This document shows, piece after piece, positions 3,702-60,675 of a DNA stretch of 60,675 nucleotides (position 1 is its first letter; each line of letters starts with the position of its first letter). This DNA comes from an uncultured Ruminococcus sp. Lineage in GTDB: Bacteria; Bacillota; Clostridia; Oscillospirales; CAG-272. The notes beneath the pieces were generated by a model. That model was not told the origin of the DNA. It saw nothing but the letters and a program-made list of their open reading frames with translations, and ran no database searches. The translations under genes were made by a program, and so were the position numbers. The stretch lies in the NCBI GenBank assembly GCA_964634795.1, contig CAZWLL010000007.1:1-60675 (forward strand). Reading direction: 5' to 3'.

Positions 3702-3883
3702 AACAAAAGAAGGATGCTTCACATAGTGAAGCATCCTCGAGGAGGCGGTTTATCTCTTAACTGTTAAATTAAAAGTTATCCGCCCGTAAACTGTGTGGTG
3801 AACAAAAGAAGGATGCTTCACATGGTGAAGCATCCTTGAGGAGGCGGTTTATCTCTTAACTATTAAACTGAAGATTATCCGCC
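3702..3883 (-). repeat. Tandem duplication of an 83-bp structured element (3702-3784 and 3801-3883), each ending in an intrinsic terminator-like hairpin
   Basis: 7 differences in 83 nt by manual alignment; 16-nt spacer. On minus each copy reads GGCGG...CCGCC stem, then AGGATGCTTCAC-N3-GTGAAGCATCCT followed by TCTTTTGTT. Confidence 0.9.
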
Positions 3884-3887
3884 GACA

Positions 3888-4220
3888 TTAGTCAGCATCT
3901 TCGGCGTGAACGTCAACATTGCGGACTGCGGTGCGAAGGATTCTGATTTTATTGCGCTCGTTGCTGGTTTCGATTGTTACGGTTTCATCTTTGATTGAAA
4001 CGATTTTACCGATAATGCCGCCGATAGTGGTGATTTCATCACCTACCTGGAGATTGTTGCGCATGTTGCTTGCTTCTTTGTCCTGTTTTTTCTGGGGACG
4101 ATATAAAAAGAAATAAAAAACAGCTAATAATGCGGCAATCATTACAATATTGGTGATGGCACTTACGGTAGTGTTAGAACTGCTTGCTGTGCTTGACGCT
4201 GATTCAAGAAAATAATACAT
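3888..4220 (-). CDS. yajC: Preprotein translocase subunit YajC
   Basis: Single TM segment, then FLYRPQKKQ...NLQVGDEITTIGGIIGKIV...VTIET signature. Confidence 0.92.
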   Translation of the reverse strand: MYYFLESASSTASSSNTTVSAITNIVMIAALLAVFYFFLYRPQKKQDKEASNMRNNLQVGDEITTIGGIIGKIVSIKDETVTIETSNERNKIRILRTAVRNVDVHAEDAD

Positions 4221-4260
4221 TATTTTTCTCCCTTGCTGAAATTAATTGGATTTGATGTAA

Positions 4261-4289
4261 ATTATATAATATAAATGAAGCTAATGCAA
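4261..4289 (-). promoter_or_regulatory. sigmaA-type promoter for yajC
   Basis: Minus strand TTGCAT, 17 nt, TATAAT. Confidence 0.6.
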
Positions 4290-4333
4290 TATTCTTCGAG
4301 CTGAATTAATAATAAATTAAAATAATTACCGCA

Positions 4334-5014
4334 TTATATACGTATTCTGCCGAAAGCACCGAGCATTGCGATAAGCTCAAGGTAGTTGTCATCCGATATT
4401 GTTCCGCCCGATCCGCATGCCCATGAGCTGCCGTATTTTCTGTGCAGCTCGGTAACTCGCGCATAAATTGCCGCGGGAGAAGAGCTTTCAAGCCGTTGAA
4501 CACCGAGACCGCCGAGGATACGTATTTTATCTCCGTATTTCTCGAGATATTCTTCTGCAGAGTCGGAAGCGAACCATCCCTCATATCCGAGCCGTAAAGC
4601 ATCGGTTATGTCTCCGTCCATTCGAATAGTAGGAGTACAGCTCGATTTAATGTTTCCGTATACGGCAATCACATCGATTGCATTAGTTTTTTCGGCTGCG
4701 GCAATATCGTTTTTATTATCCGTGATAATTCCGTAACCTTGCGGCGAGATGTCTTTTTTGCTTATTTCTTCGAGTAACAGCTTCTTTCCATCTTCGTCGA
4801 ACAAACGCATGTCGACGAAAACAATATCTGAGTATGTTCGTGCTGATAGGTGCGTAAGCGTGTCAAGATATTTTTCCGGAGTCAGCCAAAGATCATCACC
4901 GCGCCGCCAGATTAATGTTTCGGAATGAGTACGTGATAAAAACGGTTCGAATATTACCGGTTTTACAGGCTTTCCCGATAAAAAATCGAGAAAGTATTTT
5001 TTGTTCAGATCCAT
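4334..5014 (-). CDS. Hypothetical protein, C-terminus resembling uroporphyrinogen decarboxylase/MtaA-family barrels
   Basis: KYGDKIRILGGLGVQRL...SPAAIYARV...WACGSGGTI resembles UroD/MtaA C-termini; only 226 aa. Confidence 0.5.
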   Translation of the reverse strand: MDLNKKYFLDFLSGKPVKPVIFEPFLSRTHSETLIWRRGDDLWLTPEKYLDTLTHLSARTYSDIVFVDMRLFDEDGKKLLLEEISKKDISPQGYGIITDNKNDIAAAEKTNAIDVIAVYGNIKSSCTPTIRMDGDITDALRLGYEGWFASDSAEEYLEKYGDKIRILGGLGVQRLESSSPAAIYARVTELHRKYGSSWACGSGGTISDDNYLELIAMLGAFGRIRI

Positions 5015-5147
5015 TATAAGTTCTTTCTTTGTTTGCGTTGTTGATTAAGTGGATTATACAACACTGAAAACACAAAAGTCAACCGTCTTATTCGAATTAT
5101 TATTTGAAAAAAATTTATGAATCTTGTCAGTATAATTATACAGACAC

Positions 5148-5176
5148 TTGATTATGACAGACAAATGATGTATAAT
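5148..5176 (+). promoter_or_regulatory. sigmaA-type promoter for ilvE
   Basis: TTGATT, 17 nt, TATAAT; RBS GGAGG before ATG 5211. Confidence 0.6.
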
Positions 5177-5210
5177 ACAGAATAATAATACAAAAACGGA
5201 GGAAAACAAC

Positions 5211-6281
5211 ATGTTGAATATAAAAACAGAAAAAATCAATACACCAAAACAAAAGCCGGACTACAGCAAACTCGGATTCGGTAAATATTTCACGGATCAC
5301 ATGTTCCTTATGGATTATACCGAGGGCGAAGGCTGGCATGACGCCAGAATAGTTCCTTACGGACCGATACCCTTTGAACCTTCCTCAATGGTATTCCATT
5401 ATGCACAGGAGCTTTTCGAAGGACTTAAGGCTTACAGAACCTCCGACGGTACTGTTCAGCTGTTCAGACCTCAGTGCAATATCGAAAGAATGAATAACAC
5501 ATGCGACAGACTGTGCGTTCCGAGAATAGATCCCGATGACGCACTGCAGGCAATTGAAGCAATTGTAGAAGCGGATAAGGATTGGGTACCGTATGAATAC
5601 GGCACATCACTTTACATCCGTCCGTTTATAATCGCAACCGACTGCCATCTCGGCGTTCATCCGTCAAGCAGCTATTTGTTCTGCATTATTCTTTCTCCCG
5701 TCGGCTCATACTACGCCGCAGGTATTAACCCCGTAAAGATTCTGGTTGAAAGAGAATATGTTCGCTGCGTTAAAGGCGGCACGGGTATTGCGAAAGCAGG
5801 CGGAAACTACGCAGCTTCCCTTATCGGTCAGAAAAAAGCCGATGAGTTGGGATATGCTCAGGTATTGTGGCTTGACGGCGTTCACAGAAAATATATTGAC
5901 GAAGTCGGCGCTATGAATATTTTCTTCGTTATCGACGGTGTTGTTGTAACGCCCGATCTTACCGACGGAAATATACTTCCCGGCGTAACAAGAAGATCAT
6001 GCATTGAGCTCTTGAAGAACTGGGGAATTCCCGTAGAAGAACGCAAGGTTTCAATAGACGAAGTATTGAGTGCTCACGACAACGGACACCTTGATGAGGT
6101 ATTCGGTACAGGAACTGCCGCTGTTATTTCTCCTGTAGGCGAGCTGTACGACAACGGTAAGAGTTACATTATAAACAACAATGAAATCGGTAAAATCGCA
6201 AAGAAACTTTATGATGAGCTTACCGGTATTCAGTGGGGTAAGGTTGACGATTATATGAACTGGACCGTTAAAATAAAGTAA
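5211..6281 (+). CDS. ilvE: Branched-chain amino acid aminotransferase
   Basis: HYAQELFEGLKAY, LYIRPF, AKAGGNYAAS (PLP Lys), EVGAMNIF, ILPGVTR, EVFGTGTAAVISPV. Confidence 0.95.
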   Translation: MLNIKTEKINTPKQKPDYSKLGFGKYFTDHMFLMDYTEGEGWHDARIVPYGPIPFEPSSMVFHYAQELFEGLKAYRTSDGTVQLFRPQCNIERMNNTCDRLCVPRIDPDDALQAIEAIVEADKDWVPYEYGTSLYIRPFIIATDCHLGVHPSSSYLFCIILSPVGSYYAAGINPVKILVEREYVRCVKGGTGIAKAGGNYAASLIGQKKADELGYAQVLWLDGVHRKYIDEVGAMNIFFVIDGVVVTPDLTDGNILPGVTRRSCIELLKNWGIPVEERKVSIDEVLSAHDNGHLDEVFGTGTAAVISPVGELYDNGKSYIINNNEIGKIAKKLYDELTGIQWGKVDDYMNWTVKIK

Positions 6282-6328
6282 TAAATACGCAATTGCTTTA
6301 TTGACGGTTATTCGAAAGAGGTCGGCAG

Positions 6329-6919
6329 ATGAAGATATATGATATATCACAGGAGCTTTTCTCGTCCCATGTCTATCCGGGAGACAAAGCACCGAAGAGA
6401 ACCCTTATTTCCGACATGACTAAGGGCGCGTCATGCAATGTGAGCGAGCTTGAAATGAATGCGCACAACGGTACTCACATGGATGCACCGAGACATTTTG
6501 TGAAAAACGGAATAACAATAGACGAGCTCCCTCTCGAGAAGCTCATCGGCAGCTGTGCCGTTGTCAGTGCGGAAGGAGAGGTTACGGCTGATTTTGTTCG
6601 TGAAATATCGAAGAAATATAAAACCGAAAGACTTCTTTTGCGCGGTGAGTGCCATTTAAATAAAGAGGCTGCGGATATACTTTCGGAATGCGGCATTGCT
6701 CTTATCGGTGTTGAAAGTCAGAGCATCGCAACATACGATGATCCCGTTACGGTTCATGTGTCTGTTCTCGGCCAGGGAATAGCCGCGCTTGAGGGACTTG
6801 TTCTGCGTGATGTACCCGATGGAAAGTACTTCCTTTTCGCGGCGCCGATTAAGCTCGGCGGAAGCGACGGATCCCCATGCCGTGCCGTTCTCATTGATAA
6901 AATAGATACAGATAATTAA
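6329..6919 (+). CDS. Cyclase/kynurenine formamidase-family metal hydrolase
   Basis: YDISQEL...VYPGD, HNGTHMDAPRH (HxGTHxDxPxH), GSDGSPCRAVL. Confidence 0.85.
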   Translation: MKIYDISQELFSSHVYPGDKAPKRTLISDMTKGASCNVSELEMNAHNGTHMDAPRHFVKNGITIDELPLEKLIGSCAVVSAEGEVTADFVREISKKYKTERLLLRGECHLNKEAADILSECGIALIGVESQSIATYDDPVTVHVSVLGQGIAALEGLVLRDVPDGKYFLFAAPIKLGGSDGSPCRAVLIDKIDTDN

Positions 6920-6996
6920 AATTAACCGCTTTGATTTTAATCCTGCGTGATATATAATCCATTTCGAAAAAGTTTGAATTTAACGGAAGGATTATA

Positions 6997-7404
6997 ATGA
7001 AAAATTTCAAACAGAAGCTGATTTATTTCATGTACGGCAGATATGGAATAGATGAAATGTACTACGGGTTGTTTACTTTATGGATTATACTCGTGGCAGT
7101 CAACATGTTTGTCCGCTCATATATTATCTATCTTATAGAAACTGCGGTTATAATATACTCCCTGTGGAGAGTAATGTCGAAAAAGAAAGATAAACGCCGT
7201 CGTGAAAATGAAGCTTTTCTAAAGCTGTGGAATCCTGTCAAGAGTTGGTTTATACTTCAAAAAGACCGTATTCGTGACATAAAAAGCAGCAGATACCGCA
7301 AATGCCCGAAGTGTCATGCTATAATAAAACTGCCGAACAAGCGAGGCAAGCATACAACACACTGCCCGAAATGCGGTGAAAGATTCGACGTAAGAATTTT
7401 ATAA
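6997..7404 (+). CDS. Hypothetical membrane protein with C-terminal zinc ribbon
   Basis: FMYGRYGIDE start, two hydrophobic segments, CPKC...CPKC at the C-terminus. Confidence 0.75.
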   Translation: MKNFKQKLIYFMYGRYGIDEMYYGLFTLWIILVAVNMFVRSYIIYLIETAVIIYSLWRVMSKKKDKRRRENEAFLKLWNPVKSWFILQKDRIRDIKSSRYRKCPKCHAIIKLPNKRGKHTTHCPKCGERFDVRIL

Positions 7405-7411
7405 ACAATCG

Positions 7412-7467
7412 AAAAACTACCGAGGAAATTACATTGCGGATTAAATTTCCCAATCGGTAGTTTTTTT
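7412..7467 (+). terminator. Intrinsic terminator
   Basis: AAAAACTACCGA/TCGGTAGTTTTT plus inner GGAAATT/AATTTCC stem, T-tract. Confidence 0.8.
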
Positions 7468-7518
7468 CATGTTTTTATGGTATACTGAATACATGTAAAT
7501 ATAACATAAGGAGTATTT

Positions 7519-8304
7519 ATGGGAAAATTCGACGGTTACCTGTTTCTTACCGATATTGACGGAACACTTACAGATTCAAGAGGAAAGCTGTCTCGCGAGA
7601 ATATCGAGGCGATAAAGTATTTTCAAAATGAAGGCGGATTGTTCACTGTTGCATCGGGACGATTTCCCGATTTTATCGATCATTTTTCGGAGGATGTATC
7701 TCCGAATACATATATAATAGGAATAAACGGTACGGTGATATACGATCAGAAAGAGAAAAAGGATATCGTTACACGTACTATGGACAGCGACTTTATTAAC
7801 GTCGTATATGATATAATCGAAAACCGCCCGGAAGTAGATACAATCCATTTGGCACATCGTTATGATAATATTACCGTTCCGCGCGACAGATTTTCGGAAA
7901 TGGATAAGATACTCGAGGAAAATAATTACACATGGTACAGGGGATTGTTTTGCCAGGGAGCGTCGGATACTCCCATTGTCCGAGACTGGCTTATGGAAAA
8001 ATACGGAGAAAAATACAATATTAACTGCAGCTGGGCAAACGGAATTGAATTACACGCAAAAAACAGCGGAAAAGGTCAAATGCTTGAAGAATTGGCGCGC
8101 TTGGTATATCCGAACGGCGAGAAAAAGCTGACTGTCGCGGTCGGAGATTACGAAAACGATATGTCTATGATTATATCCGCCGACATAGGTTACGCTGTAT
8201 CGAATGCAATAGAATCCGTGAAAAAATCAGCTGACAGAATTACGGTATCGAATAATGAAAGCGCGATAGCGGCGATTATAGAAGAGCTTGAAAAAGAAAT
8301 GTAA
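7519..8304 (+). CDS. Cof-type HAD-IIB family hydrolase
   Basis: FLTDIDGTL, TVASGR, NSGKG, VAVGDYENDMSM motifs. Confidence 0.9.
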   Translation: MGKFDGYLFLTDIDGTLTDSRGKLSRENIEAIKYFQNEGGLFTVASGRFPDFIDHFSEDVSPNTYIIGINGTVIYDQKEKKDIVTRTMDSDFINVVYDIIENRPEVDTIHLAHRYDNITVPRDRFSEMDKILEENNYTWYRGLFCQGASDTPIVRDWLMEKYGEKYNINCSWANGIELHAKNSGKGQMLEELARLVYPNGEKKLTVAVGDYENDMSMIISADIGYAVSNAIESVKKSADRITVSNNESAIAAIIEELEKEM

Positions 8305-8316
8305 AATCGTTTCTAA

Positions 8317-8354
8317 AAAACAGCACTGTACAAACGAGTGTACGGTGCTGTTTT
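8317..8354 (+). terminator. Intrinsic terminator
   Basis: AAAACAGCACTGTAC / GTACGGTGCTGTTTT inverted repeat after the HAD stop. Confidence 0.75.
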
Positions 8355-8388
8355 AAATTAAAATCAGATTAGAAAGTTAATATTGATA

Positions 8389-8441
8389 TTGACAGAATCT
8401 CATACGTATAGTACAATAACTGTATTAGTACGGATAATACA
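8389..8441 (+). promoter_or_regulatory. sigmaA promoter with a downstream GntR (YtrA-type) operator
   Basis: TTGACA (8389-8394), 17 nt, TACAAT (8412-8417); perfect inverted repeat TGTATTA-N7-TAATACA (8421-8441) over the expected start site. Confidence 0.75.
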
Positions 8442-8450
8442 CAGCTTGTT

Positions 8451-8843
8451 GTGGGAGGTATGCAATTGGGAATTATAAATGTGGATACGCGGCTGCGCAA
8501 ACCATTGGGAGACCAACTTACGGATAACGTAAAAGAACTTATTTTATCCGGTGAATTAAAACCCGACGATAAGCTGCCGTCTGTACGCAGTCTTGCGGCG
8601 GAGCTGGGAATAAATCCCAACACCATACAAAAAGCATATTCCGAGCTTGAACGATGCGGAATTATTATGACCTTGCCCAATCGCGGAAGTATAGTTCTTG
8701 CGGATAGGAGCAGTCTGCGTGAGGAGAAAAAAGAACAGCTCACCAAAAGTATGACGCTGCTCGCAAAAGAGGCAAAGACTGCCGGAATCAATGAAGAGGA
8801 TTTTTTAAATTCGGCAAGAAAGGCGTGGTGCTGCAATGATTAA
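8451..8843 (+). CDS. GntR-family transcriptional regulator (YtrA-like); start may be ATG 8460
   Basis: LKPDDKLPSVRSLAAELGINPNTIQKAYSELE wHTH; short C-terminus; overlaps the ATPase start. Confidence 0.92.
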   Translation: MGGMQLGIINVDTRLRKPLGDQLTDNVKELILSGELKPDDKLPSVRSLAAELGINPNTIQKAYSELERCGIIMTLPNRGSIVLADRSSLREEKKEQLTKSMTLLAKEAKTAGINEEDFLNSARKAWCCND

Positions 8844-9747
8844 AGTGGATTCTGTCAGCAAAAATTTCGATGATGTAAAAAGTCTGTGCGGTGTCACTTT
8901 AAACATCGGAGACGGTTCCGTATTTGGTTTAATAGGTTCTAACGGCTCGGGAAAATCGACACTGCTGCGCATTATCAGCGGAATATATAAGCCATCGGCG
9001 GGAAATGTATGCATAGACGATGACGCTGTATATGAAAATCCATGCGTGAAAGAAAAAATAGCGTACCTGTCCGATGATCAGTATTTCATTTCGGGAGGTA
9101 CGATATACGATATGATGAAATTATACCAAAGCGTGTATCCGACCTTTTCACAAGAAAAATATAAAAAGTATTTAACACTTTTTGAGCTTGACGAAAACAG
9201 AAAGCTGTCGACATTTTCCAAGGGTATGCAAAAACAGGCGGCATTTCTGCTCGGCTTGGCATGTAATACAGACTACCTGTTGTGTGACGAAACTCTCGAC
9301 GGACTTGACCCGATGATGCGCATTATAGTGCGTAAAATCGTTGCGTCCGAGGTTGCCGAACGCGGTATAACTGTGATTTTCGCATCTCATAATTTAAATG
9401 AAATCGAGGATATATGCGATCATGTGGCTCTTCTTCACAAAGGCAAACTTTTGTTTGAAGCTGGACTCGATGAGATAAAAACAGGAATACACAAGGTTCA
9501 GCTTTCATTTAATAAAGAGAGTATTGCCGACGGCAAGAGACAGCTCGAAGAGCTCGATACAGTGTCGCTTAATCAAAGAGGAAGCTTATTTACCGTAATT
9601 GTGCGCGGTGACGAAAAATATATAGATGATTATATGCGCTCACTGAATCCCGTCTTTGTCGAGTTCATACCTTTGACACTTGAAGAAATATTTATAGCCG
9701 AAATGGAGGAGAGGGGGTATGAGTTTAATGACAAGCTCAACTCGTAA
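8836..9747 (+). CDS. ABC transporter ATP-binding protein (YtrB-like)
   Basis: Walker A GSNGSGKST, signature FSKGMQK, Walker B LLCDETLDGLDP, H-loop ASH. Confidence 0.92.
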   Translation: MIKVDSVSKNFDDVKSLCGVTLNIGDGSVFGLIGSNGSGKSTLLRIISGIYKPSAGNVCIDDDAVYENPCVKEKIAYLSDDQYFISGGTIYDMMKLYQSVYPTFSQEKYKKYLTLFELDENRKLSTFSKGMQKQAAFLLGLACNTDYLLCDETLDGLDPMMRIIVRKIVASEVAERGITVIFASHNLNEIEDICDHVALLHKGKLLFEAGLDEIKTGIHKVQLSFNKESIADGKRQLEELDTVSLNQRGSLFTVIVRGDEKYIDDYMRSLNPVFVEFIPLTLEEIFIAEMEERGYEFNDKLNS

Positions 9748-11923
9748 CGAACGCAATCGCAGCGCATACAAAGCCGCTCCGTATTTCAGATATTATATTA
9801 AGCATAATGTTTATCAGCTTGTTTTGTTCTTAGTTGTGATAATACTTGCTGTGATAGTTCCGTGCTGTATGGAATACGGTAGATTCGTAAAAGATTATCC
9901 GAAAGAATTACTGGACATTACACAGTACGGCAAAATAGGTTTTGTACTAAGCGGATGTATGGGATTGTTTTGCGGAATGACCGCTTTATCATATGTGAAC
10001 GGCAAGCAGAATATCACGTGTATGCACAGCTTTCCGCTTAAGAGAACAACTTTATTCCTATGTGAAACACCTGCCGGCATCATATACTATTTGCTGTCGA
10101 TTACAATCGGATTTGCCGCAATACTGATAATATCGGGTTTTGAGAAATGCACTATAGATAAGAGTATGTTCTCGGTGATGTATTTCGCATCTATTGCGAT
10201 GTTTATTCTCATGCATTCCGCGGTAATGTTTGCGGCGGGACTCAGCGGAACGGGAGCCGGCAGATTTTTCACGGCGATGCTGATACTTTTTATGCCGTTT
10301 GTTCTGTATGCGCTTGTGGTTTATACCTGTGAAATCGGAAATAGCAATATTGACAGCAGCTATTATCTGGATTCAAAAGTATGCTCAGCTTTGTGTCCGT
10401 TTTACAGACTTTTAAATGCGATTTTTAATTATGATACCGCAGAAACCGCTATTTCGGAAATATTTAAAACAGTACCGTATATTGCGGTAAACTATGCGGC
10501 TGCGGTTCTGCTTCACAAATACAGACGTACCGAGGATACAACAAAAACAATAATTTGGAAGCCTGTATTTTGGATTGTTAAATATTCCGTTATGTTTGTC
10601 GGTGCCGCAATCGGAATAATTATATTCGGCGCTGATCTTTTCTTCGGAGCAACAAGCATATCATACAAGATTTTCGGAGCTGTATTGGGACTATTCATGT
10701 CGTATATCTTTATGAACTGCGTATTATACCGCTCCGTACGCTCGATTTTTAAGGATGTAAAGCCGTCCTTGATTTTCGCCTCGGCAGTACTGCTTTATAC
10801 CCTCGTAGTACCCGCTAATCTGTTCGGCATTGTTGGAAAATTATACAGCGAGAGCAATACAATAAGATTTGTTATAGATGTGGACAGGGTTGAGGTTACA
10901 GTCCAGAGTGAGTATTATGAGGAAATATCGGAATATACGGCAGCTTACAATTCGACAGGCGGAATATACTCGGACAATGAAATATATGTGACCGGTATAT
11001 GGTCGGATGAGGACGACGAATATGTTAGGGAGAATTTTTCCGAATATGTCGGTAAGCCGTATGACGATACTGCAGACAATATATATGAAGAAGATTTAGC
11101 TGCAACCTCAATAGTAAGAAGCTGCAGCGGACATATAAGTGCGGATATAGTGCAGTATCCCGTGTTCGGTATACCGATGGCATATCATATTGTTATTCCC
11201 ATGGAAGGCGAGCTTTGGCAAAAAATAAAATCGTCAGAGGAATATGTTTCCGCAATGGACATTTCAGATTACAAAGAAGCGGGAAAATACGAATCAATAC
11301 AGATTACCGTAGGCGAAAAAAGCGTAACCTTTTCACCTGACAGCACGTGTGAGGTGATAGATAACGATTTTACATACGAAACATACCGCAGTCTCGATGA
11401 TGAAGAAAAGATAAAACGCGATGAGCTGATCGAAAAGCTGATTGATTCAGCTGTGTATGACGAAGAAATGTTGGCTGATAATACTATAATAGGATATGTC
11501 GAGATTAATACCGGACTCAGCGACAATTATTACACGATTACATATCCGATAAGTGCGGGAAACATAGATATGCTTAACGCGGCTGTCGATTTGCTTGCGT
11601 TTGCGGAGGGCAGTGAGAGAGATATTCGATATTCGTCAGCTGATGAGTATTTTGCCGATGCCGCGGCGGAGTACGAATATGCGGTAATGATTGATTTGAA
11701 AACAGGAGAGGCCAAACGCATCGATTCCGATACGATAGCCGAGTACTCGAAATACACATCCGCTCTGAGCTATTTCTGGTGGGAATATTATAAATACACG
11801 AGCATTGATAACGGATATATGCTGCTTGTCAAAGACAACGCTGGCTATTCGCAGGAATTGTATTTCAGAAATGGTGCGGACATCGAAAATGAATTAACTG
11901 TACTGTTCGAGAGCCTCGACTGA
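9719..11923 (+). CDS. ABC transporter permease with large acidic C-terminal extramembrane domain
   Basis: About 10 hydrophobic segments in the first ~370 aa, MHSFPLKRTTLF motif, overlaps the ATPase stop. Confidence 0.75.
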   Translation: MSLMTSSTRNERNRSAYKAAPYFRYYIKHNVYQLVLFLVVIILAVIVPCCMEYGRFVKDYPKELLDITQYGKIGFVLSGCMGLFCGMTALSYVNGKQNITCMHSFPLKRTTLFLCETPAGIIYYLLSITIGFAAILIISGFEKCTIDKSMFSVMYFASIAMFILMHSAVMFAAGLSGTGAGRFFTAMLILFMPFVLYALVVYTCEIGNSNIDSSYYLDSKVCSALCPFYRLLNAIFNYDTAETAISEIFKTVPYIAVNYAAAVLLHKYRRTEDTTKTIIWKPVFWIVKYSVMFVGAAIGIIIFGADLFFGATSISYKIFGAVLGLFMSYIFMNCVLYRSVRSIFKDVKPSLIFASAVLLYTLVVPANLFGIVGKLYSESNTIRFVIDVDRVEVTVQSEYYEEISEYTAAYNSTGGIYSDNEIYVTGIWSDEDDEYVRENFSEYVGKPYDDTADNIYEEDLAATSIVRSCSGHISADIVQYPVFGIPMAYHIVIPMEGELWQKIKSSEEYVSAMDISDYKEAGKYESIQITVGEKSVTFSPDSTCEVIDNDFTYETYRSLDDEEKIKRDELIEKLIDSAVYDEEMLADNTIIGYVEINTGLSDNYYTITYPISAGNIDMLNAAVDLLAFAEGSERDIRYSSADEYFADAAAEYEYAVMIDLKTGEAKRIDSDTIAEYSKYTSALSYFWWEYYKYTSIDNGYMLLVKDNAGYSQELYFRNGADIENELTVLFESLD

Positions 11924-53288: not shown

Positions 53289-53458
53289 CGGAACTTATTT
53301 CATACAATTATAGTCTATAGAATGATGTAGGCGGATAAGCTTAAGCTTGATAATGAGGATAACTACCGCCTCCTCGAACTTGCTCTTCTTCAAATATCAA
53401 AGATGTGAAACTCTAAAGAGTTTCGAAGATTTGCCTTTCGGCAAACGCGCAGGTTCCG
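53289..53458 (+). repeat. Multi-hairpin intergenic element related to 3702-3883 and 60623-60675 (MITE/REP-like or structured RNA)
   Basis: GGCGGATAA...GATAACTACCGCCTCCTCGA core (53330-53377); hairpins GAAACTCT/AGAGTTTC and TTTGCC/GGCAAA; short CGGAAC/GTTCCG inverted ends. Confidence 0.55.
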
Positions 53459-53485
53459 TTTTTATGGCTTAACGGTTGAGAGGTA

Positions 53486-54709
<1,224 letters not shown>

Positions 54710-54717
54710 TGAACGAA

Positions 54718-54762
54718 AAAACAGCTTATACGATTAAGATAAAAAATCGTGTAGGCTGTTTT
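54718..54762. terminator. Bidirectional terminator between the glycosidase gene and tRNA-Thr
   Basis: AAAACAGCTTATACGATT/AATCGTGTAGGCTGTTTT inverted repeat. Confidence 0.75.
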
Positions 54763-54788
54763 GTTATGTAAAAAAAGCAAAAATAAAA

Positions 54789-54860
54789 AGCTAGTGGAGG
54801 GATTCGGACCCTCGACCTGCTGATTACGAATCAGCTGCTCTACCCCTGAGCCACACTAGC
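54789..54860 (-). tRNA. tRNA-Thr(CGT)
   Basis: Minus strand GCTAGTG acceptor stem, GCTCAGGGGTAGAGC D arm, GCTGA-TTCGTAA-TCAGC anticodon arm, GAGGG-TCCGAAT-CCCTC T arm; CCA not encoded. Confidence 0.93.
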
Positions 54861-54885
54861 ATTTTATAATTTTGTCAGCTTTGTA

Positions 54886-54914
54886 ATTATACTATATTAT
54901 TCTTTTTTTGTCAA
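54886..54914 (-). promoter_or_regulatory. Consensus sigmaA promoter of tRNA-Thr
   Basis: Minus strand TTGACA, 17 nt, TATAAT. Confidence 0.85.
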
Positions 54915-55009
54915 GCGATTATATGAAAATAATATCCGATTGTTGATAACGCGTGAGTAAGTGAGATAAGCATACTTACAAAACGAACGTAAAATTTCGA
55001 GACAAAATA

Positions 55010-55037
55010 AAAAGCCGCGGAACATTCCGCAGCTTTT
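55010..55037 (-). terminator. Terminator hairpin for the zinc-ribbon gene
   Basis: AAAGC-C-GCGGAA/TTCCGC-A-GCTTT; T-tract on the minus strand. Confidence 0.6.
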
Positions 55038-55067
55038 CGGGAAGAATTATTCTTAATCAATGTTCGA

Positions 55068-55619
55068 TTATTCGTTTGAACCGTTGTCGGAAGATTCATC
55101 AGCAGGCTGTTCGCATGCGGATTCATCATTGCTTTCGGTTTCTGTTGATGAGCAGCATCCGCAGTCACAGGATTCGGTATTTTCTTCGGATTCGGTTTCG
55201 CCGCAGCAGCAAGAACATTCGCAGCTCTCTTCTTCACATTCGCAAGTTTCGGGTTCGGGTTTTTCAACCTTTGCACCGCAGTATGAGCAGAAAGCAGCTT
55301 CTTCGGAAATTTCGTTTCCGCAATTCTGGCAAATCACAACCTTCTTGAGCTTAGCGATTTCCTTCTTGGTGTTTTCGATATCGGTTTTGATTTTGTCAGC
55401 CTTCATGATGAGGGAAGCGATGTCGGATGTATGATCATCACCTGTGCACTGAGCTTCATAGAACATATAACCGATTTCTTCGAATACGCTTGAGAGCTTT
55501 GCTTCGTTTGATTTTACATTTATGCCAAGCTTAGCGATTGTTGTAAGTTCACCTGTTTTTTTAACAGCCTTGTTTGCAACGTCAGATGCGCTGCGCTTAA
55601 ATTCTTCAAAAAATGACAT
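55068..55619 (-). CDS. Coiled-coil plus zinc-ribbon protein with Cys/Glu-rich tail
   Basis: CQNCG...FCSYCG zinc ribbon; RBS AAGGA; tail ETCECEEESCECSCCCG...SCDCGCC. Confidence 0.8.
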   Translation of the reverse strand: MSFFEEFKRSASDVANKAVKKTGELTTIAKLGINVKSNEAKLSSVFEEIGYMFYEAQCTGDDHTSDIASLIMKADKIKTDIENTKKEIAKLKKVVICQNCGNEISEEAAFCSYCGAKVEKPEPETCECEEESCECSCCCGETESEENTESCDCGCCSSTETESNDESACEQPADESSDNGSNE

Positions 55620-55668
55620 GACAATATCCTTTCAAATATATATATAAATTAACTTGCTTTCATGGCTT

Positions 55669-55697
55669 ATTATACTCCGAACATGTAGTAAAGTCAA
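55669..55697 (-). promoter_or_regulatory. sigmaA promoter of the zinc-ribbon gene
   Basis: Minus strand TTGACT, 17 nt, TATAAT. Confidence 0.7.
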
Positions 55698-55876
55698 TTA
55701 AGAAAAGGTAAATTTACGAACATTATTATTAGATAATACTATTTTTTATTTAGTATATTTTAATCAAAAGAGGCATAACTCTAATAAAATCAGCATTGCA
55801 CTGTAACAGCAGTATAATTTTGATTTGCCGCATAGTCGTGCTTATAAGTCGGAAAATTGTCTTGCATAACATCTTT

Positions 55877-56515
55877 TTATTCGAAAGACGGTGTGTATTC
55901 CATCGTGTTCGGATGGCTTGTAATTTGACGAATTCTGAAATTACGTACCTGAATCCAGCTTGCATATGTGCCGAGTCCGACTTTTCCGTATGCCGTAATA
56001 GGATCGGGATCGAACATTTCGATAACCAGCTTTCCGTCAACGAATATAAAACAATGTCCGTCAATATCTCCGGCTTGAATAAAATACAATTTTCCGGCTT
56101 CAAGCGGTATGAGTGATGTGACTGAGCGGCAGCGGCATTCGGGATAATGCTCGATTCCCGTTTTGTTCTCCCACCATCCTCCGAGGCCGGCTATGTAGCT
56201 GATGCCTGCGTCATCGTGTTCATTGTCCCATCCCTCGGCACGCCAGGTGAAGTTCAAATCATTATCGCACGGAGGAACGGTTCTTCCCTCAAATTCCAAA
56301 AGAACATTTCCCGGAAAATGCTTTTTCGAGTAGAGTATACCGCCTGAGTTGCCCGTATGTTTTCCGTCAATCCAGCCGTTTTCAACCTTCCATACACCGT
56401 TCTTATATTCCCAATCGCGATTAAGCTCTTCAGTTGTACGCGGACCTTCAGCTAAAATCGGACTTTGATCTAAGTCGATAATCTGCTCCATAATATGCAG
56501 TTTACTGTTTTCCAT
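55877..56515 (-). CDS. Hypothetical protein, ConA-like beta-sandwich (DUF1080/3-keto-glycoside hydrolase-like fold suspected)
   Basis: GGAGG RBS before ATG 56515; GVWKVENGWIDG, VLLEFEG, FVDGKLV, GKVGLG, IQVRNFRIR pattern. Confidence 0.55.
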   Translation of the reverse strand: MENSKLHIMEQIIDLDQSPILAEGPRTTEELNRDWEYKNGVWKVENGWIDGKHTGNSGGILYSKKHFPGNVLLEFEGRTVPPCDNDLNFTWRAEGWDNEHDDAGISYIAGLGGWWENKTGIEHYPECRCRSVTSLIPLEAGKLYFIQAGDIDGHCFIFVDGKLVIEMFDPDPITAYGKVGLGTYASWIQVRNFRIRQITSHPNTMEYTPSFE

Positions 56516-56601
56516 AAAATAACACCTCCGTAAAAAATTCATATGAATCGAATTCGGCAAAACAGCAGCTCTATACGAATAGCTGTTTCGACGAGATATT
56601 T

Positions 56602-56621
56602 AATATTTAAATTTAAATATT
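56602..56621. promoter_or_regulatory. 20-bp perfect palindrome between divergent genes (candidate operator)
   Basis: AATATTTAAATTTAAATATT equals its reverse complement. Confidence 0.5.
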
Positions 56622-56710
56622 TAAATTCAGACTATAATATGATATAATCAGACAGTTAGAATGTCAATAGGCAAATTGCCGCTCTTGAAAAAATAATGGA
56701 GGTCTTATAT

Positions 56711-58609
56711 ATGAAACTTCGCGCACCCGCAGTACCGCTTATTACCGTCGATCCGTATTTCAGTGTCTGGTCGGTGAAAGATCATCTTAACGATTCCGCT
56801 CCGTGTCACTGGACCGGACATACAAACACCATTAACGGTTTTCTGACTATAGACGGAGAGTTCTACCGTTTTATGGGAGGTGAGGAGGCCGGCGGTATTC
56901 CGATGAAACAAATTTCACTTGATATTACCGCAATGACAAGTGTTTACACTTTCGAAGCATCGGGTATTCGCCTGACAGCTCGCTTCTTCACACCTCTTTT
57001 TGCGGATGATTTAATGTTAATCAGCAGACCGGTGTCATACCTTGAGCTTTCTTATGAAATTACAGACGGAAAGAGTCATGTGCTTGAGGCGGAAATTCGT
57101 GCTTCGGAAGAGCTCTGTCTTGACGCGGCACGAGAGGAGCCTGTTGCCCTTTATGTTGAATCACTTGACGGAGGCATTAGTGCCGCACGCATCGGCAATG
57201 CCGTACAATCGGGGCTCGGCTGGGCAGGAGATGACACTCGTATACATTGGGGATATTTTTACCTGTGTGTTCGTGACGGTTTGACGGACTATAAAAAGGT
57301 GCGCGGCGAAACCTTCGTAACCGCAAAAATCGTTTTAAAGGAAAACACGCCGTCACTGTTTGCTTTTGCTTATGATGATATAGAAAGCATAGAGTATTTT
57401 AATAAAATTTTAAAAGCGTATTGGAAAAAGGACGGAATGACAATTGAGCAGGCAATTTGTGACGCTTTTAATGAGTATGACACTCTTCTTGCACGTGAAA
57501 AAGTCTTTTCCGCAGATTTAAAAGAAAAGTCAACAGCAGCAGGCGGAGAAAAGTATGCGGAAATGCTTTTGCTGGCTTACAGACAGGTTTTAGCAGCTCA
57601 CAAGCTTGTTGAGGACGATGAGGACGGATTACTGTATATATCAAAGGAATGCTTCTCTAACGGATGCGCCGCTACCGTGGATGTAAGCTATCCGTCTATG
57701 CCGATGTTCCTTTACTATAATCCCGAGCTTGTGAACGCTATGATGCGCCCCGTTTTCCATTATGCGAACAGTGATGTATGGCCGTTCAATTTCGCACCGC
57801 ATGATGTCGGATGCTATCCGAGAGTCAACGGACAGGTGTATTCCAACGGTACGGATCCCGAGCATCAAATGCCTATTGAAGAATGCGGAAACATGCTTGT
57901 AATGACGGCTGCTGCTGCTCTGGCGAAAAAGGACGTATCATTCTTTGTCGAAAATGAAAATACCTTCGTAAAATGGGCGGACTACCTCGTTGCTCATGGT
58001 GCGGATCCCGAAAATCAAATCTGTACGGACGACTTTTTCAAGCATCTTCCGCATAACTGCAATCTTTCCGTTAAGGCGATTATGGGTATCGCTTCTATGG
58101 CAATTATGCTTGAAATGAACGGAGAAATCGATGGAGCACAGTACTACAGAAAAACCGCACAGGATATGGCAAACAGCTGGATTGAGAGAGCCGACAACGG
58201 TGACGGAAGCTTCCGTTTGGCATTTGATTTACCCGACAGCTACAGCCAAAAATACAATATGGTATGGGATAAGATTTTCGGAACAAATCTGTTCCCTAAA
58301 GATAAGATAGAAAGTGAATTTGCTTCATACAAACAGTATGCCAATGCATACGGCAATCCGCTTGACTGCCGCGGCTCTACCTCAAAAACCGACTGGCTTA
58401 CGTGGACGGCAACATTAGCCGAAAGCAGGGAAGACTTCGAAGAATTTATGGCTCCCGTTTGGCGTTTCTTCAATGAAACCGAAAATCGTGTACCTATGGC
58501 GGATTGGTACAGTACAAAAACTGCGGCACGCTTTTATCAGCAGAACCGTACTGTTCAAGGCGGAATGTTTATCAAGCTTCTGGAACAGTCGGGCAAGTGC
58601 CGTGTTTAA
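56711..58609 (+). CDS. DUF5127/DUF4965 'glutaminase A'-like protein, probable six-hairpin glycosidase fold
   Basis: LRAPAVPLITVDPYFSVWS, YRQVLAAHKL, KECFSNGCAATVDV, FAPHDVGCYP, MPIEECGNM, NQICTDDF, KTDWLTW. Confidence 0.85.
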   Translation: MKLRAPAVPLITVDPYFSVWSVKDHLNDSAPCHWTGHTNTINGFLTIDGEFYRFMGGEEAGGIPMKQISLDITAMTSVYTFEASGIRLTARFFTPLFADDLMLISRPVSYLELSYEITDGKSHVLEAEIRASEELCLDAAREEPVALYVESLDGGISAARIGNAVQSGLGWAGDDTRIHWGYFYLCVRDGLTDYKKVRGETFVTAKIVLKENTPSLFAFAYDDIESIEYFNKILKAYWKKDGMTIEQAICDAFNEYDTLLAREKVFSADLKEKSTAAGGEKYAEMLLLAYRQVLAAHKLVEDDEDGLLYISKECFSNGCAATVDVSYPSMPMFLYYNPELVNAMMRPVFHYANSDVWPFNFAPHDVGCYPRVNGQVYSNGTDPEHQMPIEECGNMLVMTAAAALAKKDVSFFVENENTFVKWADYLVAHGADPENQICTDDFFKHLPHNCNLSVKAIMGIASMAIMLEMNGEIDGAQYYRKTAQDMANSWIERADNGDGSFRLAFDLPDSYSQKYNMVWDKIFGTNLFPKDKIESEFASYKQYANAYGNPLDCRGSTSKTDWLTWTATLAESREDFEEFMAPVWRFFNETENRVPMADWYSTKTAARFYQQNRTVQGGMFIKLLEQSGKCRV

Positions 58610-58615
58610 GGTGTC

Positions 58616-60613
58616 ATGGAAAAGGAGAATTTCATCATGCATTTGATGACTGAGTTGAATCGCTTTCAGTTGACTGAAGGCAAAAAGCGTGTGTCTGAGA
58701 CGGCGGTTTCGCAAATGACGAACAATATATATAAAGAAGTGCTTTGTCAGATTCCCGAATATGCCGACGCAAACGAGGACGCGTGGACTCGTATTTCGAT
58801 AATAAGAAACTTTACCGCTGAGATTACAGAGCGTTTAATAGCTTTAGGCGTTTCGCAGAATGAGCTGCAAACAGAAGACGCTTTCGCCGTATGCACGAGA
58901 CAGAATGAGATTTGTGTCTATTCCGAGAGTGAGTGCGGCTTGATTTACGGTGTGTATGAAGTGCTTCAGCAGGCACAAGCCGACAACGGATATGTACAGG
59001 ATGGGATAAGCTTTTCCGCGCCTCAGTGCCCGCTGCGTGCATTGAAGGTATACCTGCCCGGCGAGAAACAGCTGAATCAATTTTATAAGATTGTGGATAT
59101 GCTGCTTTATTACCGCTACAACACGATTATTATCGAGGTCGGAGGTGCTATGGAATATAAGCGCCATCCCGAAATCAACGAAAGCTGGATTGAATATTGT
59201 AACGAAATGCGCCGATATCCCGAACGTGCGGACGAGGTTCAGAATATGTTCGGATGGGTGAAGAATTCCATCCATTTTGAAAACGGTGACGGCGGATTTT
59301 TATCGCAGGATACCGTTCGTGAGCTGGTAAAATACTGTCGTGACCGCGGTATGAATGTGATTCCCGAGGTACCGTGCCTGAGTCATTCCGATTATTTGCT
59401 TAACGCTCATCCCGAGCTTTCGGAACGTCCGTACGATCCGTTTCCCGATACATATTGCCCATCCAATCCCGATTCGTACAAGCTGCTGTTCGAGGTTATG
59501 GACGAGGTAATCGATGTGTTCCGTCCGAATATTATGCAGATAGGTCATGATGAGTTTTATACGTACGGCTTGTGTGAACGCTGCAGACAGCGCTCAGCCG
59601 CAGATATACTTGCGGGAGATATCACACGCATACACGATTATCTTGCGGAGCACGGCATTCGTCTCATGTATTGGTCCGAAAAAATGCTTAATCATATCAC
59701 CAGCTGGGGAGAAGGTTGGGGCGGTGCCGAGCGACATTGCAAATGCTCGAGAAAAACAGTTCACGATATGCCGGCTACTTATACGGCAATCGACAAGATT
59801 CCGAAGGATTGCATTTCTCACAACTGGTATTGGGGCATGCGAGAAAGCCACGATGATGAATTCCTTTCAAGAGGAATGGATATGACATACGGAAACTGGG
59901 ACCCGCGCGGCTTCGTAAATTGGCAGAAACGAGTTGAAGCAGGCGCAATGGGTGCGGCGCCTTCGCATTGGACAACACTTGAAGAGGTTACAATGCAGCG
60001 CAACAGCGTGCTTATAGATATAGTATTCGGCGCATATCTCTTCTGGAAGACTGATTATACAGATGATCGCTACGAGGAGCTGTTTAAAGCAAGCATAGAA
60101 GAGCTTTATCTGTACCACAACCGTAAAATTATGGACGGACCGCATTTCGAGTTTAAGCATATGACTACCATTTGGCGTAAACATATCTACATTACAAGCG
60201 CACCGATGCTGCTTGATCGTGATACGGTAGGTAAATATATTATATCCTACAGAAGCGGACGTACACTGGAGATTCCCATAATATACGGTGTCAATATCAT
60301 GAACCTGAACAGAAATTGGACACGCGAACATGATACGGAACTCGATTGCTATGATGTGGATCAGTCACTCGCGGAGGTTACCGCCACGACCTTGCCGGAA
60401 CTGCAGCCTGACGGATTGACGCAATTCCGTTTTGTCGCTGCAAATCCTTATCCCGATGATCAGGTAACGGGTGTTCAGGTTGTGAAGACGGTTGAGGACA
60501 ACGGTGATATTTTCCTGACCGAGTTTAATGTTTGCGGGTCTTACGGTGCCAGCGAAAAGATTCGTGAATGCTGTGATGCGGAAAGCAGCCGCCTGATTTC
60601 TCCGGTTATTTAA
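58616..60613 (+). CDS. GH20-like beta-N-acetylhexosaminidase (no obvious signal peptide)
   Basis: FSAPQCPLRALK, RYNTIIIE, VIPEVPCLSH, MQIGHDE catalytic DE pair; C-terminal beta domain. Confidence 0.8.
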   Translation: MEKENFIMHLMTELNRFQLTEGKKRVSETAVSQMTNNIYKEVLCQIPEYADANEDAWTRISIIRNFTAEITERLIALGVSQNELQTEDAFAVCTRQNEICVYSESECGLIYGVYEVLQQAQADNGYVQDGISFSAPQCPLRALKVYLPGEKQLNQFYKIVDMLLYYRYNTIIIEVGGAMEYKRHPEINESWIEYCNEMRRYPERADEVQNMFGWVKNSIHFENGDGGFLSQDTVRELVKYCRDRGMNVIPEVPCLSHSDYLLNAHPELSERPYDPFPDTYCPSNPDSYKLLFEVMDEVIDVFRPNIMQIGHDEFYTYGLCERCRQRSAADILAGDITRIHDYLAEHGIRLMYWSEKMLNHITSWGEGWGGAERHCKCSRKTVHDMPATYTAIDKIPKDCISHNWYWGMRESHDDEFLSRGMDMTYGNWDPRGFVNWQKRVEAGAMGAAPSHWTTLEEVTMQRNSVLIDIVFGAYLFWKTDYTDDRYEELFKASIEELYLYHNRKIMDGPHFEFKHMTTIWRKHIYITSAPMLLDRDTVGKYIISYRSGRTLEIPIIYGVNIMNLNRNWTREHDTELDCYDVDQSLAEVTATTLPELQPDGLTQFRFVAANPYPDDQVTGVQVVKTVEDNGDIFLTEFNVCGSYGASEKIRECCDAESSRLISPVI

Positions 60614-60622
60614 TCGCACAGT

Positions 60623-60675
60623 GAGTGGGAATAATCTTCAGTCGAGTAGGCGAGATAACCATCCCACTCTCGAGA
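60623..60675 (+). repeat. Structured element related to 3702-3883 and 53330-53377, possibly cut by the window end
   Basis: GAGTGGGA-ATAATCTTCAG-N10-GAGATAA-CCA-TCCCACTC-TCGAGA. Confidence 0.6.

What the first reader, a model, noticed from the sequence alone, without database searches (positions are those of the whole stretch)
3702..60675. Dispersed family of four short elements with a conserved core and a stem that changes sequence but keeps pairing (best candidate for an undescribed system)
Aligned in one orientation: (3883, minus) GGCGG ATAATCTTCAG TTTAATAGTTAA GAGATAA A CCGCC TCCTCAA; (3784, minus) GGCGG ATAACTTTTAA TTTAACAGTTAA GAGATAA A CCGCC TCCTCGA; (53330, plus) GGCGG ATAAGCTTAAG CTTGATAAT GAGGATAA CTA CCGCC TCCTCGA; (60623, plus) GAGTGGGA ATAATCTTCAG TCGAGTAGGC GAGATAA CCA TCCCACTC TCGA. 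The closing stem switches from GGCGG/CCGCC to GAGTGGGA/TCCCACTC, while ATAA, GATAA and CTC(G/A)A are kept. All copies are intergenic and in the sense orientation of the upstream gene (4, ~103, ~122 and 9 nt after a stop). Four copies in 60 kb suggest many more genome-wide. Hypotheses: a non-autonomous mobile element (MITE/REP-like) mobilised in trans, or a protein-binding or processing RNA motif akin to the intergenic stem-loops that tune operon stoichiometry in cellulolytic clostridia. I cannot assign it to a family I know.
Basis: partly seen in the sequence, partly recalled or inferred. Interest (0 to 1): 0.75.

Follow-up and report, generated by a model that had tools for sequence, protein, structure and literature searches.

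The report
Dispersed hairpin-plus-terminator repeat family
The four short elements are real. They are the front halves of a roughly 100-base repeat unit, a conserved hairpin followed by a terminator-like hairpin. The unit is scattered and tandemly amplified between genes in one uncultured gut Clostridia lineage, which makes it a new example of a known kind of bacterial "junk or co-opted" repeat rather than a new regulatory system.

Summary
All four copies exist at the stated coordinates. A covariance model built from the family scores them at 60-68 bits, against 13 bits or less for everything else in the window. No Rfam family matches.

Each conserved hairpin ("A") has a 5-8 bp stem and a loop of exactly 31 nt with fixed bases. 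It is followed by a second, terminator-like hairpin ("B") and a U-rich tail, giving a unit of about 100-150 nt. Copies 1 and 2 are a 99-nt tandem duplication.

Contigs from close strains show five loci in about 85 kb, each holding 1 to 4 or more head-to-tail units. Copy number and unit order differ between strains. Every copy points in the direction of local transcription. Three stem versions (GGCGG, TGGGA, CGGGG) keep perfect pairing.

Relatives at about 80-84% DNA identity carry the array after yajC. They have empty sites at the two 5'-UTR loci, where in this species the units sit exactly between the -10 box and the ribosome-binding site (NAGPA gene, ispD operon). A relative at 72% identity has none.

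Best reading: a lineage-specific interspersed repeat comparable to BOX, SPRITE, REP and MIRU elements, acting as a portable terminator or attenuator. How it spreads is unknown. A regulon-type riboswitch is unlikely.

The parts
3785..3887 (-). Repeat unit 1 after yajC. Linker TGTC; hairpin A (3883-3843: GGCGG, 31-nt loop, CCGCC); UCCUCAA; hairpin B1 (3837-3809: AAGGATGCTTCAC-CAT-GTGAAGCATCCTT); T-run and spacer.
   Evidence: (67.5 bits).
3700..3784 (-). Repeat unit 2, a tandem copy with a 99-nt period. Hairpin A 3784-3744, hairpin B1 3738-3710, T-run to about 3700.
   Evidence: (62.6 bits).
53324..53483 (+). Long-type unit in the 5' UTR of the NAGPA glycosidase gene. It starts GATGTA directly after the -10 box TAGAAT (53318-53323). 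Hairpin A is 53330-53370, followed by UCCUC. The branched 'B-long' structure is closed by GAACTTGC (53376-53383) pairing with GCAGGTTC (53449-53456), followed by CGTTTTTATGG. The tail CTTAACGGTTGAGAGG merges with the ribosome-binding site; the ATG is at 53486.
   Evidence: 60.8 bits; 90.6% identical over 96 nt to the ispD-leader unit. Empty site in L161.
60614..60675 (+). Unit after the GH20 gene (58637-60613). Hairpin A is GAGTGGGA (60623-60630), a 31-nt loop, then TCCCACTC (60662-69), followed by TCGAGA. It is cut by the window end. In L130 it continues with hairpin B2 (GAGAATTTCCA-TGAC-TGGAAATTCTC) and CGTTCTTT.
   Evidence: 63.7 bits.
3888..4220 (-). yajC, the gene whose stop codon lies 4 nt before unit 1.
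   Evidence: PF02699.
53486..54709 (+). Phosphodiester glycosidase (NAGPA) gene. Its 5' UTR holds copy 3.
   Evidence: PF09992, 3.5e-40.
58637..60613 (+). GH20 family gene. Its stop codon lies 9 nt before copy 4. Its last ~25 nt resemble the tail of a repeat unit.
   Evidence: Comparison by eye.

Best explanation
The four motifs are the 5' halves of a modular interspersed repeat found in one lineage of uncultured Clostridia.

**Unit structure.** One unit is about 95-105 nt, or about 150 nt in a long variant.
- Hairpin A has an inner 5-bp stem, extended to 8 bp in some copies. It closes a loop of 31 nt with conserved bases.
- A 2-7 nt C/U-rich linker ending in CUC follows.
- Hairpin B is an 11-13 bp perfect stem, or a branched structure closed by an 8-bp stem. 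It is followed by a U-rich tail that resembles an intrinsic terminator.

**Distribution (shown).**
- Units lie head to tail in arrays of 1 to 4 or more.
- The arrays gain, lose and reshuffle units between strains, presumably by unequal recombination or slippage.
- They occur at unrelated loci, always in the direction of transcription.
- Related species have empty sites at two of these loci.

**Function (inferred).**
- The units are transcribed with their host genes.
- At gene 3' ends, B terminates transcription and the A+B pair protects the mRNA 3' end.
- In the two 5' UTRs the unit starts at about the transcription start. There it would give the mRNA a 5'-terminal stem-loop and a weak terminator, that is, an attenuator.

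**Spread (inferred).**
- The family spread, or was copied, to new sites after the lineage split from relatives at ~72% identity, which lack it. At the two 5'-UTR loci this happened after the split from the ~82% relatives.
- The agent is unknown. One candidate is a hairpin-recognising single-strand DNA transposase acting in trans, as for REP/RAYT or IS200/IS605. Another is recombination between copies.
For: **A real, specific family.**

**A and B always occur together.** B modules are never found without A. B is terminator-like by consensus scan, and the units fold as two hairpins (z-scores -3.5 to -6.3).

**Copy number varies between strains.**

| Locus | Units seen |
|---|---|
| After yajC | 2, 3 or 4 |
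| After GH20b | 1 or 2 |
| After the giant GH20 | at least 1-2 |
| ispD leader | 3, with a different unit order in another strain |

**Lineage restriction.** There are no copies in about 200 kb of a relative at 72% identity, nor in L160-L164. The yajC and GH20 3' ends of that relative carry ordinary sequence.

**Empty sites in relatives at 80-84% identity.**
- ispD promoter: GTGATATAAT is followed directly by a ~30-nt leader. In this species about 330 nt of units are inserted there.
- NAGPA promoter: TAGAAT is followed by 15 nt and then the ribosome-binding site. In this species a 155-nt unit is inserted there.

**Unrelated host genes.** The flanking genes are yajC, two GH20 genes, NAGPA and ispD/ispF. 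This argues against a shared ligand or regulon.

**Stem covariation.** Three stem haplotypes, 100% paired.

**Assembly breaks.** Contigs from several assemblies end at the elements, as expected for a multi-copy repeat.

**Precedent.** The same pattern led to the 'parasitic, sometimes co-opted' conclusion for pneumococcal BOX, RUP and SPRITE elements: species plus sister species only, 3'-end enrichment, co-orientation with genes and variable tandem modules (PMC3049150).
Against: - Only about 85 kb of this genome was seen, giving 5 loci. High genome-wide copy number is inferred, not shown.
- No transposase, no target duplication and no strain-level presence/absence of a whole locus was found, so mobility is inferred only from between-species empty sites. 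Those could also be losses.
- The three relatives used for empty and filled sites come from different MAGs and may not be one species.
- Two features look more like a functional RNA or a protein-recognition site than like neutral decay: the strictly constant 31-nt loop with invariant bases, and the higher divergence of the rest of the loop compared with hairpin B.
- Sense-oriented terminator-like units sit between the promoter and the ribosome-binding site of the essential ispDF operon. This is unexpected for a purely selfish terminator-carrying element and suggests weak or conditional termination.
Confidence: 0.62

Rival explanations
1. Hairpin A is a structured RNA (or RNA-protein site) that makes the following terminator B conditional. 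The unit would then be a host-used attenuator cassette placing unrelated genes under one trans-acting factor, by antitermination, by processing, or by selective stabilisation as in clostridial operon stem-loops.
For: - The loop length is fixed at 31 nt, and ATA, TA and AGA.AACCA stay invariant while the stem co-varies.
- All copies are in sense orientation.
- A is always immediately upstream of a terminator-like hairpin.
- Units sit in the 5' UTR of the essential ispDF operon and start at the predicted transcription start.
- Within the defined stems, G-U wobbles favour the sense strand 5 to 1 (counted by eye).
Against: - Absent at the same 5' UTRs in relatives at 80-84% identity and absent from a relative at 72% identity.
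- The host genes are functionally unrelated.
- There is no complementarity between A and B that would form an antiterminator.
- No supported second helix exists inside A.
- Copy number varies freely between strains.
- Whole-unit sense versus antisense folding energies show no consistent strand bias.
Confidence: 0.2
2. The units are non-autonomous derivatives (REP/REPIN or PATE type) mobilised as single-stranded DNA by a Y1 (HUH) transposase encoded elsewhere in the genome. Hairpin A would be the recognition hairpin, with insertion 3' of an AAT-like target and no duplication.
For: - A is an imperfect palindrome whose stem co-varies, as in REP classes (PMC2817692, PMC3733652).
- Both ends of the unit are hairpins.
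- No target duplication is seen at the two comparable sites.
- The three first-unit left junctions share ..AAT|G(ATG)T[CA]GGCGG, and two of them fall directly after a -10 hexamer, which is melted DNA in open complexes.
- IS200-type Y1 elements exist in this clade and insert at the same yajC 3' end.
Against: - No Y1/RAYT gene was seen in the window or flanks of this species.
- There is no consistent GTAG or CGTC tag.
- The arrays are direct repeats, not the inverted pairs typical of BIMEs and REPINs.
- Only three junctions support the target motif.
- The tandem arrays are explained more simply by unequal recombination.
Confidence: 0.13
3. Each unit is a small RNA gene (sibling sRNAs in tandem, as with LhrC or csRNAs). 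The C/U-rich CCUCCUC stretch between the two hairpins would be an anti-Shine-Dalgarno seed.
For: - The architecture of 5' hairpin, C/U-rich linker and terminator fits.
- Copy 3 and the ispD copy start about 6-7 nt after a -10 box: TAGAAT in the window, TGgTATAAT in L130 and L156.
Against: - Those promoters are the native promoters of the downstream genes, because they are present at the empty sites.
- Units inside arrays and at gene 3' ends have no promoter-like sequence upstream.
- In the GAG-type units the linker is only 2 nt (UC), so no seed is exposed.
Confidence: 0.04

Closest known systems
[quoted passage not shown]
   Same: - Small interspersed intergenic repeats that fold into stem-loops.
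- Confined to one species and its close relative.
- Oriented with the coding strand and concentrated just downstream of genes.
- SPRITE looks like an intrinsic terminator.
- BOX has tandem modules whose number varies between strains.
- They are co-transcribed with neighbouring genes, and the way they are mobilised is unclear.
   Different: - No sequence similarity.
- Here the terminator-like hairpin is coupled to a second, conserved hairpin with a fixed 31-nt loop.
- Whole units, not an inner module, are repeated head to tail.
- Two loci are precise promoter-proximal 5'-UTR insertions.
REP / BIME / REPIN elements with RAYT transposases (PMC2817692, PMC3733652, PMC3116915)
   Same: - Extragenic imperfect palindromes of 20-40 nt.
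- Stems differ between classes but keep pairing.
- Mostly downstream of genes and probably transcribed.
- Proposed roles in termination, attenuation and mRNA stabilisation.
- Clustered in arrays.
   Different: - REPs carry a GTAG or CGTC tag and are typically paired in inverted orientation; these units have neither feature.
- Hairpin A has a large 31-nt loop rather than a near-perfect palindrome.
- No RAYT was found in the sequence available.
- The host is a Firmicute.
MIRU-type VNTR intergenic repeats of mycobacteria (from my own knowledge; not checked in a paper here)
   Same: - Dispersed units of 50-100 nt, tandemly repeated.
- Oriented with the operon.
- Copy number varies between strains.
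- They abut stop and start codons.
   Different: MIRUs are not defined by hairpins or terminators, and some encode short peptides. There is no sequence relation.
IS200/IS605-derived palindrome-associated elements (PATEs) (from my own knowledge)
   Same: - Hairpins near both ends.
- Insertion next to a short specific sequence without target duplication.
- Strand-specific.
   Different: - No transposase and no defined cleavage motifs were identified.
- Tandem direct arrays are not typical.

Membership tests
Any Rfam 15 RNA family (riboswitches, leaders, ribozymes, sRNAs) | Match to a curated covariance model at or near its gathering score | tested here: not met
   The only hit in the whole window at gathering threshold is a tRNA. 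E-value mode on both element regions gives only chance hits, all at 22 bits or less against thresholds of 34-219 bits.
Riboswitch or cis-regulatory leader | Conserved upstream of the same or functionally related genes across species | tested here: not met
   Absent from the orthologous ispD and NAGPA 5' UTRs in relatives at 80-84% identity. The host genes are unrelated.
Riboswitch or cis-regulatory leader | Alternative pairing between the sensor and the terminator (an expression platform) | tested here: not met
   A and B fold independently. No competing helix appears in the MFE or centroid structures.
Intrinsic (Rho-independent) terminator (hairpin B) | G+C-containing stem of 5 bp or more, a 3-8 nt loop, then a T-run | tested here: met
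   B1 at 3837-3809 and 3738-3710, and B2 at L130 2848-2873, pass the consensus scan. The tails of B2 and B-long (CGTTATTT) are weak T-runs. Termination was not measured.
REP / BIME (RAYT-associated) | Short imperfect palindrome with co-varying stems between classes | tested here: met
REP / BIME (RAYT-associated) | Unpaired GTAG or CGTC tag at one end of the palindrome (PMC3733652) | tested here: not met
   The sequences 5' of the stem are TGTC, GTA, ACG, TGG, TTC, CAGT and AATT. Only copy 3 happens to read GTAG.
REP / BIME (RAYT-associated) | Units in alternating (inverted) orientation within clusters | tested here: not met
   All arrays are head to tail on one strand.
REP / BIME (RAYT-associated) | More than 100 copies per genome and a RAYT gene flanked by the repeats | not testable with these tools
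   Only about 85 kb of this genome could be reached. The collection scans gave only chance hits. There is no transposase in the window.
MITE | Terminal inverted repeats spanning the element, plus a target-site duplication | tested here: not met
   The unit ends (GATGTC GGCGG... and ...GGTTGAGAG) are not inverted repeats of each other. No duplication is seen at the filled versus empty ispD and NAGPA sites.
Small interspersed repeat of the BOX/SPRITE kind | Multi-locus intergenic repeat, restricted to a species and its close relatives, with strain-variable tandem modules and stem-loop folding | tested here: met
   Definition as in PMC3049150. Sequence homology to BOX or SPRITE was not tested directly.
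Tandem sibling sRNA genes | Own promoter in front of each unit | tested here: not met
   There are no promoter-like sites before units inside arrays or at gene 3' ends. The -10 boxes before copy 3 and the ispD copy belong to the host genes.

The most novel reading that the evidence does not exclude
Hairpin A, with its fixed 31-nt loop and invariant bases, is the recognition site of a dedicated trans-acting protein. Two versions are possible.
- The protein is an RNA-binding factor that makes terminator B conditional. The unit would then be a portable attenuator that has put essential isoprenoid genes (ispDF) and glycan-degrading genes under one control.
- The protein is a single-strand DNA transposase that targets the melted -10 region of promoters. 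That would explain two independent insertions exactly between the -10 box and the ribosome-binding site.
Probability: 0.15. Interest if true: 0.7.

Novelty: new member of a known kind. Interest (0 to 1): 0.38.

Why it matters
- **Assembly and annotation.** The family breaks metagenome assemblies of this gut Clostridia lineage. It should be masked or modelled when annotating these MAGs.
- **Strain typing.** Its tandem arrays vary between strains, so they could serve as VNTR-type markers.
- **Natural experiment on leaders.** Terminator-like units sit between a promoter and the ribosome-binding site of the essential ispDF operon and of a glycosidase gene. This shows how much structured, terminator-like RNA a bacterial leader can tolerate or exploit. 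It is also a starting point for finding the factor, if any, that recognises the conserved hairpin.
- **Limits.** On present evidence it does not open a new class of regulatory or mobile system.

Tried and rejected
- **Rfam.** Gathering and E-value modes gave nothing.
- **Genome-contig scan.** The pattern GGCGGATAAN{22,32}CCGCCTCCTC gave 112 hits, all chance matches in G+C-rich coding DNA.
- **Metagenome-contig scan.** The hairpin-B pattern gave 12 chance hits. The collection does not even hold the JGI sample that carries the element.
- **Viral contigs, phage and plasmid collections.** Three viral patterns and blastn against phages and plasmids gave no match.
- **Literature search with sequence strings.** Only primer coincidences were found.
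- **A second helix inside hairpin A.** Two registers were tested. Neither is supported: 57-63% of cells are paired, there is no covariation, and RNAalifold predicts only the outer stem.
- **Variable part of the loop as a 'guide'.** Only chance 10-12-mers match nearby DNA. An AT-rich word is shared with the GH20 promoter palindromes, on the same strand rather than the complement.
- **Strand asymmetry of folding energy as an RNA-versus-DNA test.** Inconclusive.
- **A regulon of N-acetylhexosamine genes.** This was suggested by the GH20 and NAGPA neighbours. It was dropped once the ispD leader and yajC copies were seen, and once the giant GH20 gene was found to have its own promoter downstream of the array.
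- **Short ORFs on either strand of the units.** None is shared between copies (by eye).
- **Integron attC.** A GCTTAAC word in the tail matches RYYYAAC. There is no paired GTTRRRY bounding a hairpin and no integrase, so this was rejected by inspection.
Full report
**Observation**

- The four sequences are in the window as quoted.
- In the orientation given, each is a stem that closes a loop of exactly 31 nt.
- Rfam 15 has no match. At gathering thresholds the only hit in the window is a tRNA, and permissive searches of both element regions give only chance hits.
- Covariance model R1 was built from 12 distinct copies (alignment A1). Run without filters, it scores the four window copies at 60.8-67.5 bits, and the next hit scores 13.3 bits.
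- A useful negative control came from a failed scan. One hundred unrelated loci were picked because they contain GGCGGATAA...CCGCCTCCTC, and they reach only 12-30 bits. The loop therefore defines the family, not just the stem and tail.

**Anatomy of the unit**

- After hairpin A comes a short C/U-rich linker ending in CUC, and then a second hairpin, B.
- After yajC, B is AAGGATGCTTCAC-CAT-GTGAAGCATCCTT followed by CTTTTGTT, which the consensus scan calls terminator-like.
- Copies 1 and 2, together with their B hairpins, are a 99-nt tandem duplication.
- Copy 4 is cut by the window end. A contig from another sample (L130) shows that it continues with GAGAATTTCCA-TGAC-TGGAAATTCTC and CGTTCTTT, which is also terminator-like.
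- Copy 3 is followed by a longer branched structure closed by GAACTTGC/GCAGGTTC and then CGTTTTTATGG.
- The B modules never occur without A in any sequence examined.
- Whole units fold as two independent hairpins, with z-scores of -3.5 to -6.3.

**More copies, and variation between strains**

Look-ups of window proteins in other assemblies gave contigs of the same species at 97-99% identity.

| Locus | What was found |
|---|---|
| After yajC | 2 or 3 units in different strains, including a third A variant and two kinds of B |
| After the 658-aa GH20 gene | 1 or 2 units |
| After the giant GH20 gene (just left of the window) | At least 1-2 units |
| Upstream of ispD (6 kb right of the window) | Three units in one strain, a different unit order in another |

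- At the ispD locus the layout is: promoter TGgTATAAT, then GATGTC, then three units, then the ribosome-binding site.
- In total, R1 finds 30 copies at 51-70 bits in these loci, with nothing in between those scores and the noise.
- That makes five loci in about 85 kb. All copies point in the direction of local transcription.
- Several assemblies end exactly at an element.

**Structure**

- Across 12 distinct copies, the inner five base pairs of stem A are paired in every sequence.
- There are three stem versions: GGCGG/CCGCC, TGGGA/TCCCA and CGGGG/CCCCG. Three of the five pairs change on both sides.
- These are three haplotypes, not many independent events. Covariation would also be expected for a DNA hairpin.
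- No second helix inside the loop is supported.
- The loop is 31 nt in every copy of this species and 30 nt in the sister species. Its consensus is ATAa.cTt.Ag.t.A.TAgt..AGa.AaccA.
- The rest of the loop diverges more between loci (about 60% identity) than hairpin B does (84-90%) (and by eye).

**Distribution among relatives**

- A relative at about 72% nucleotide identity keeps the gene order around yajC and the giant GH20 gene. It has ordinary sequence at both 3' ends and no copy in about 200 kb.
- MAGs at 80-84% identity give a mixed picture:
  - Two of them carry 2 and 4 tandem units after yajC. The A variant differs, and its B stem carries compensatory changes.
  - The ispD promoter of one such MAG is followed directly by a ~30-nt leader.
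  - The NAGPA promoter of another is followed by 15 nt and then the ribosome-binding site.
  - R1 finds nothing in those loci.
- The flanks align right up to the -10 hexamers, so the promoters belong to the host genes and the units lie inside the 5' UTRs.
- No target duplication is visible. In both cases a short stretch (7 and 15 nt) is replaced.
- Both insertions begin GATGT[AC]GGCGG immediately after the -10 box and end ...GGTTGAGAG. The yajC array begins TAAT-GTC-GGCGG.
- All arrays end with a partial start of another hairpin A.

**Interpretation**

- The following combination is what has been described for small interspersed repeats such as BOX, RUP and SPRITE in pneumococcus (PMC3049150) and REPs in proteobacteria (PMC2817692, PMC3733652):
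  - a multi-locus, lineage-restricted family;
  - arrays that vary between strains;
  - empty sites in relatives;
  - unrelated host genes;
  - co-orientation with transcription;
  - position next to gene ends.
- I therefore read the finding as a new family of that kind. Each unit carries a terminator-like hairpin.
- Termination at gene 3' ends and attenuation or 5'-end protection in the two leaders are inferred from sequence, not measured.
- The mechanism of spread is unknown.
  - A hairpin-specific single-strand DNA transposase is an attractive candidate, given no duplication, a shared AAT|G junction and insertion at melted promoter DNA. This rests on three junctions, and no such gene was seen.
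  - An IS200-type element in a relative, at the same yajC site, has unrelated hairpins.

**What keeps the functional-RNA rival alive**

- The constant loop length and the invariant loop bases.
- The strict sense orientation.
- Three terminator-like units sit in front of the essential ispDF operon.
- Against this rival, the element is absent from the same leaders in close relatives, the gene set is heterogeneous, and there is no alternative pairing between A and B.

**Limits**

- Genome-wide copy number, a possible transposase and the full phylogenetic range therefore remain untested.
- The organism is known only as an uncultured Clostridia bacterium.

Noticed in passing
window 1-934 (gene 1..3081, minus strand): 114-nt tandem repeats (7.6 copies, about 80% matches) lie inside the C-terminal part of a giant secreted GH20 / F5_F8 type C protein that runs off the window start. 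The gene length differs between strains (1373-1524 aa).
   Followed up: partly
window 53786-53902: A (GAAACC)n repeat encodes a Thr-Glu run in the NAGPA phosphodiester glycosidase. The protein length varies between strains (404-416 aa).
   Followed up: no
window 3190-3700: About 500 nt without a gene lie between the yajC repeat array and the GH20 promoter (TTGACA-17-TATTAT at 3184-3156, minus strand). Relatives at 72% identity carry three genes there (DUF3792, HHH, SASP; L146 10493-12022). A further terminator-like hairpin is at 3638-3609.
   Followed up: partly
window 3113-3140 (minus strand); L144 about 10990-11060: Palindromic words TTAACAGTTA and TTAATAGTTA flank the -10 box of the giant GH20 gene and recur in the sister species' leader, so they may be an operator. 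The same words occur in the apical loop of hairpin A copies 1 and 2; this may be chance.
   Followed up: partly
L155 10340-11050: In a relative at 72% identity, an IS200-type element (Y1_Tnp, PF01797) with its own G+C-rich end hairpins is inserted directly after yajC. This is the same spot that holds the repeat array in the window's species.
   Followed up: partly
window 60590-60622: The last ~25 nt of the 658-aa GH20 gene, including its stop codon (TCTCCGGTTATTTAATCGCACAGT), resemble the tail of a repeat unit (TCTCCGTTATTTAAGCTTAAAATT). The repeat may have remodelled the gene's 3' end.
   Followed up: no
window end (60675); L130 end; L002 and L005 ends; L157 start: Contigs from several independent assemblies stop inside or next to a repeat unit, so the family is an assembly breakpoint in this organism.
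   Followed up: yes
window 54789-54860 (minus strand): A single tRNA-Thr (anticodon CGT) lies between the NAGPA gene and a zinc-ribbon protein gene.
   Followed up: yes
L153 12154-19657: A relative carries conjugative-element genes (ParB, DUF6017, TraG/T4SS coupling protein, Maff2) inserted downstream of the yajC region.
   Followed up: no
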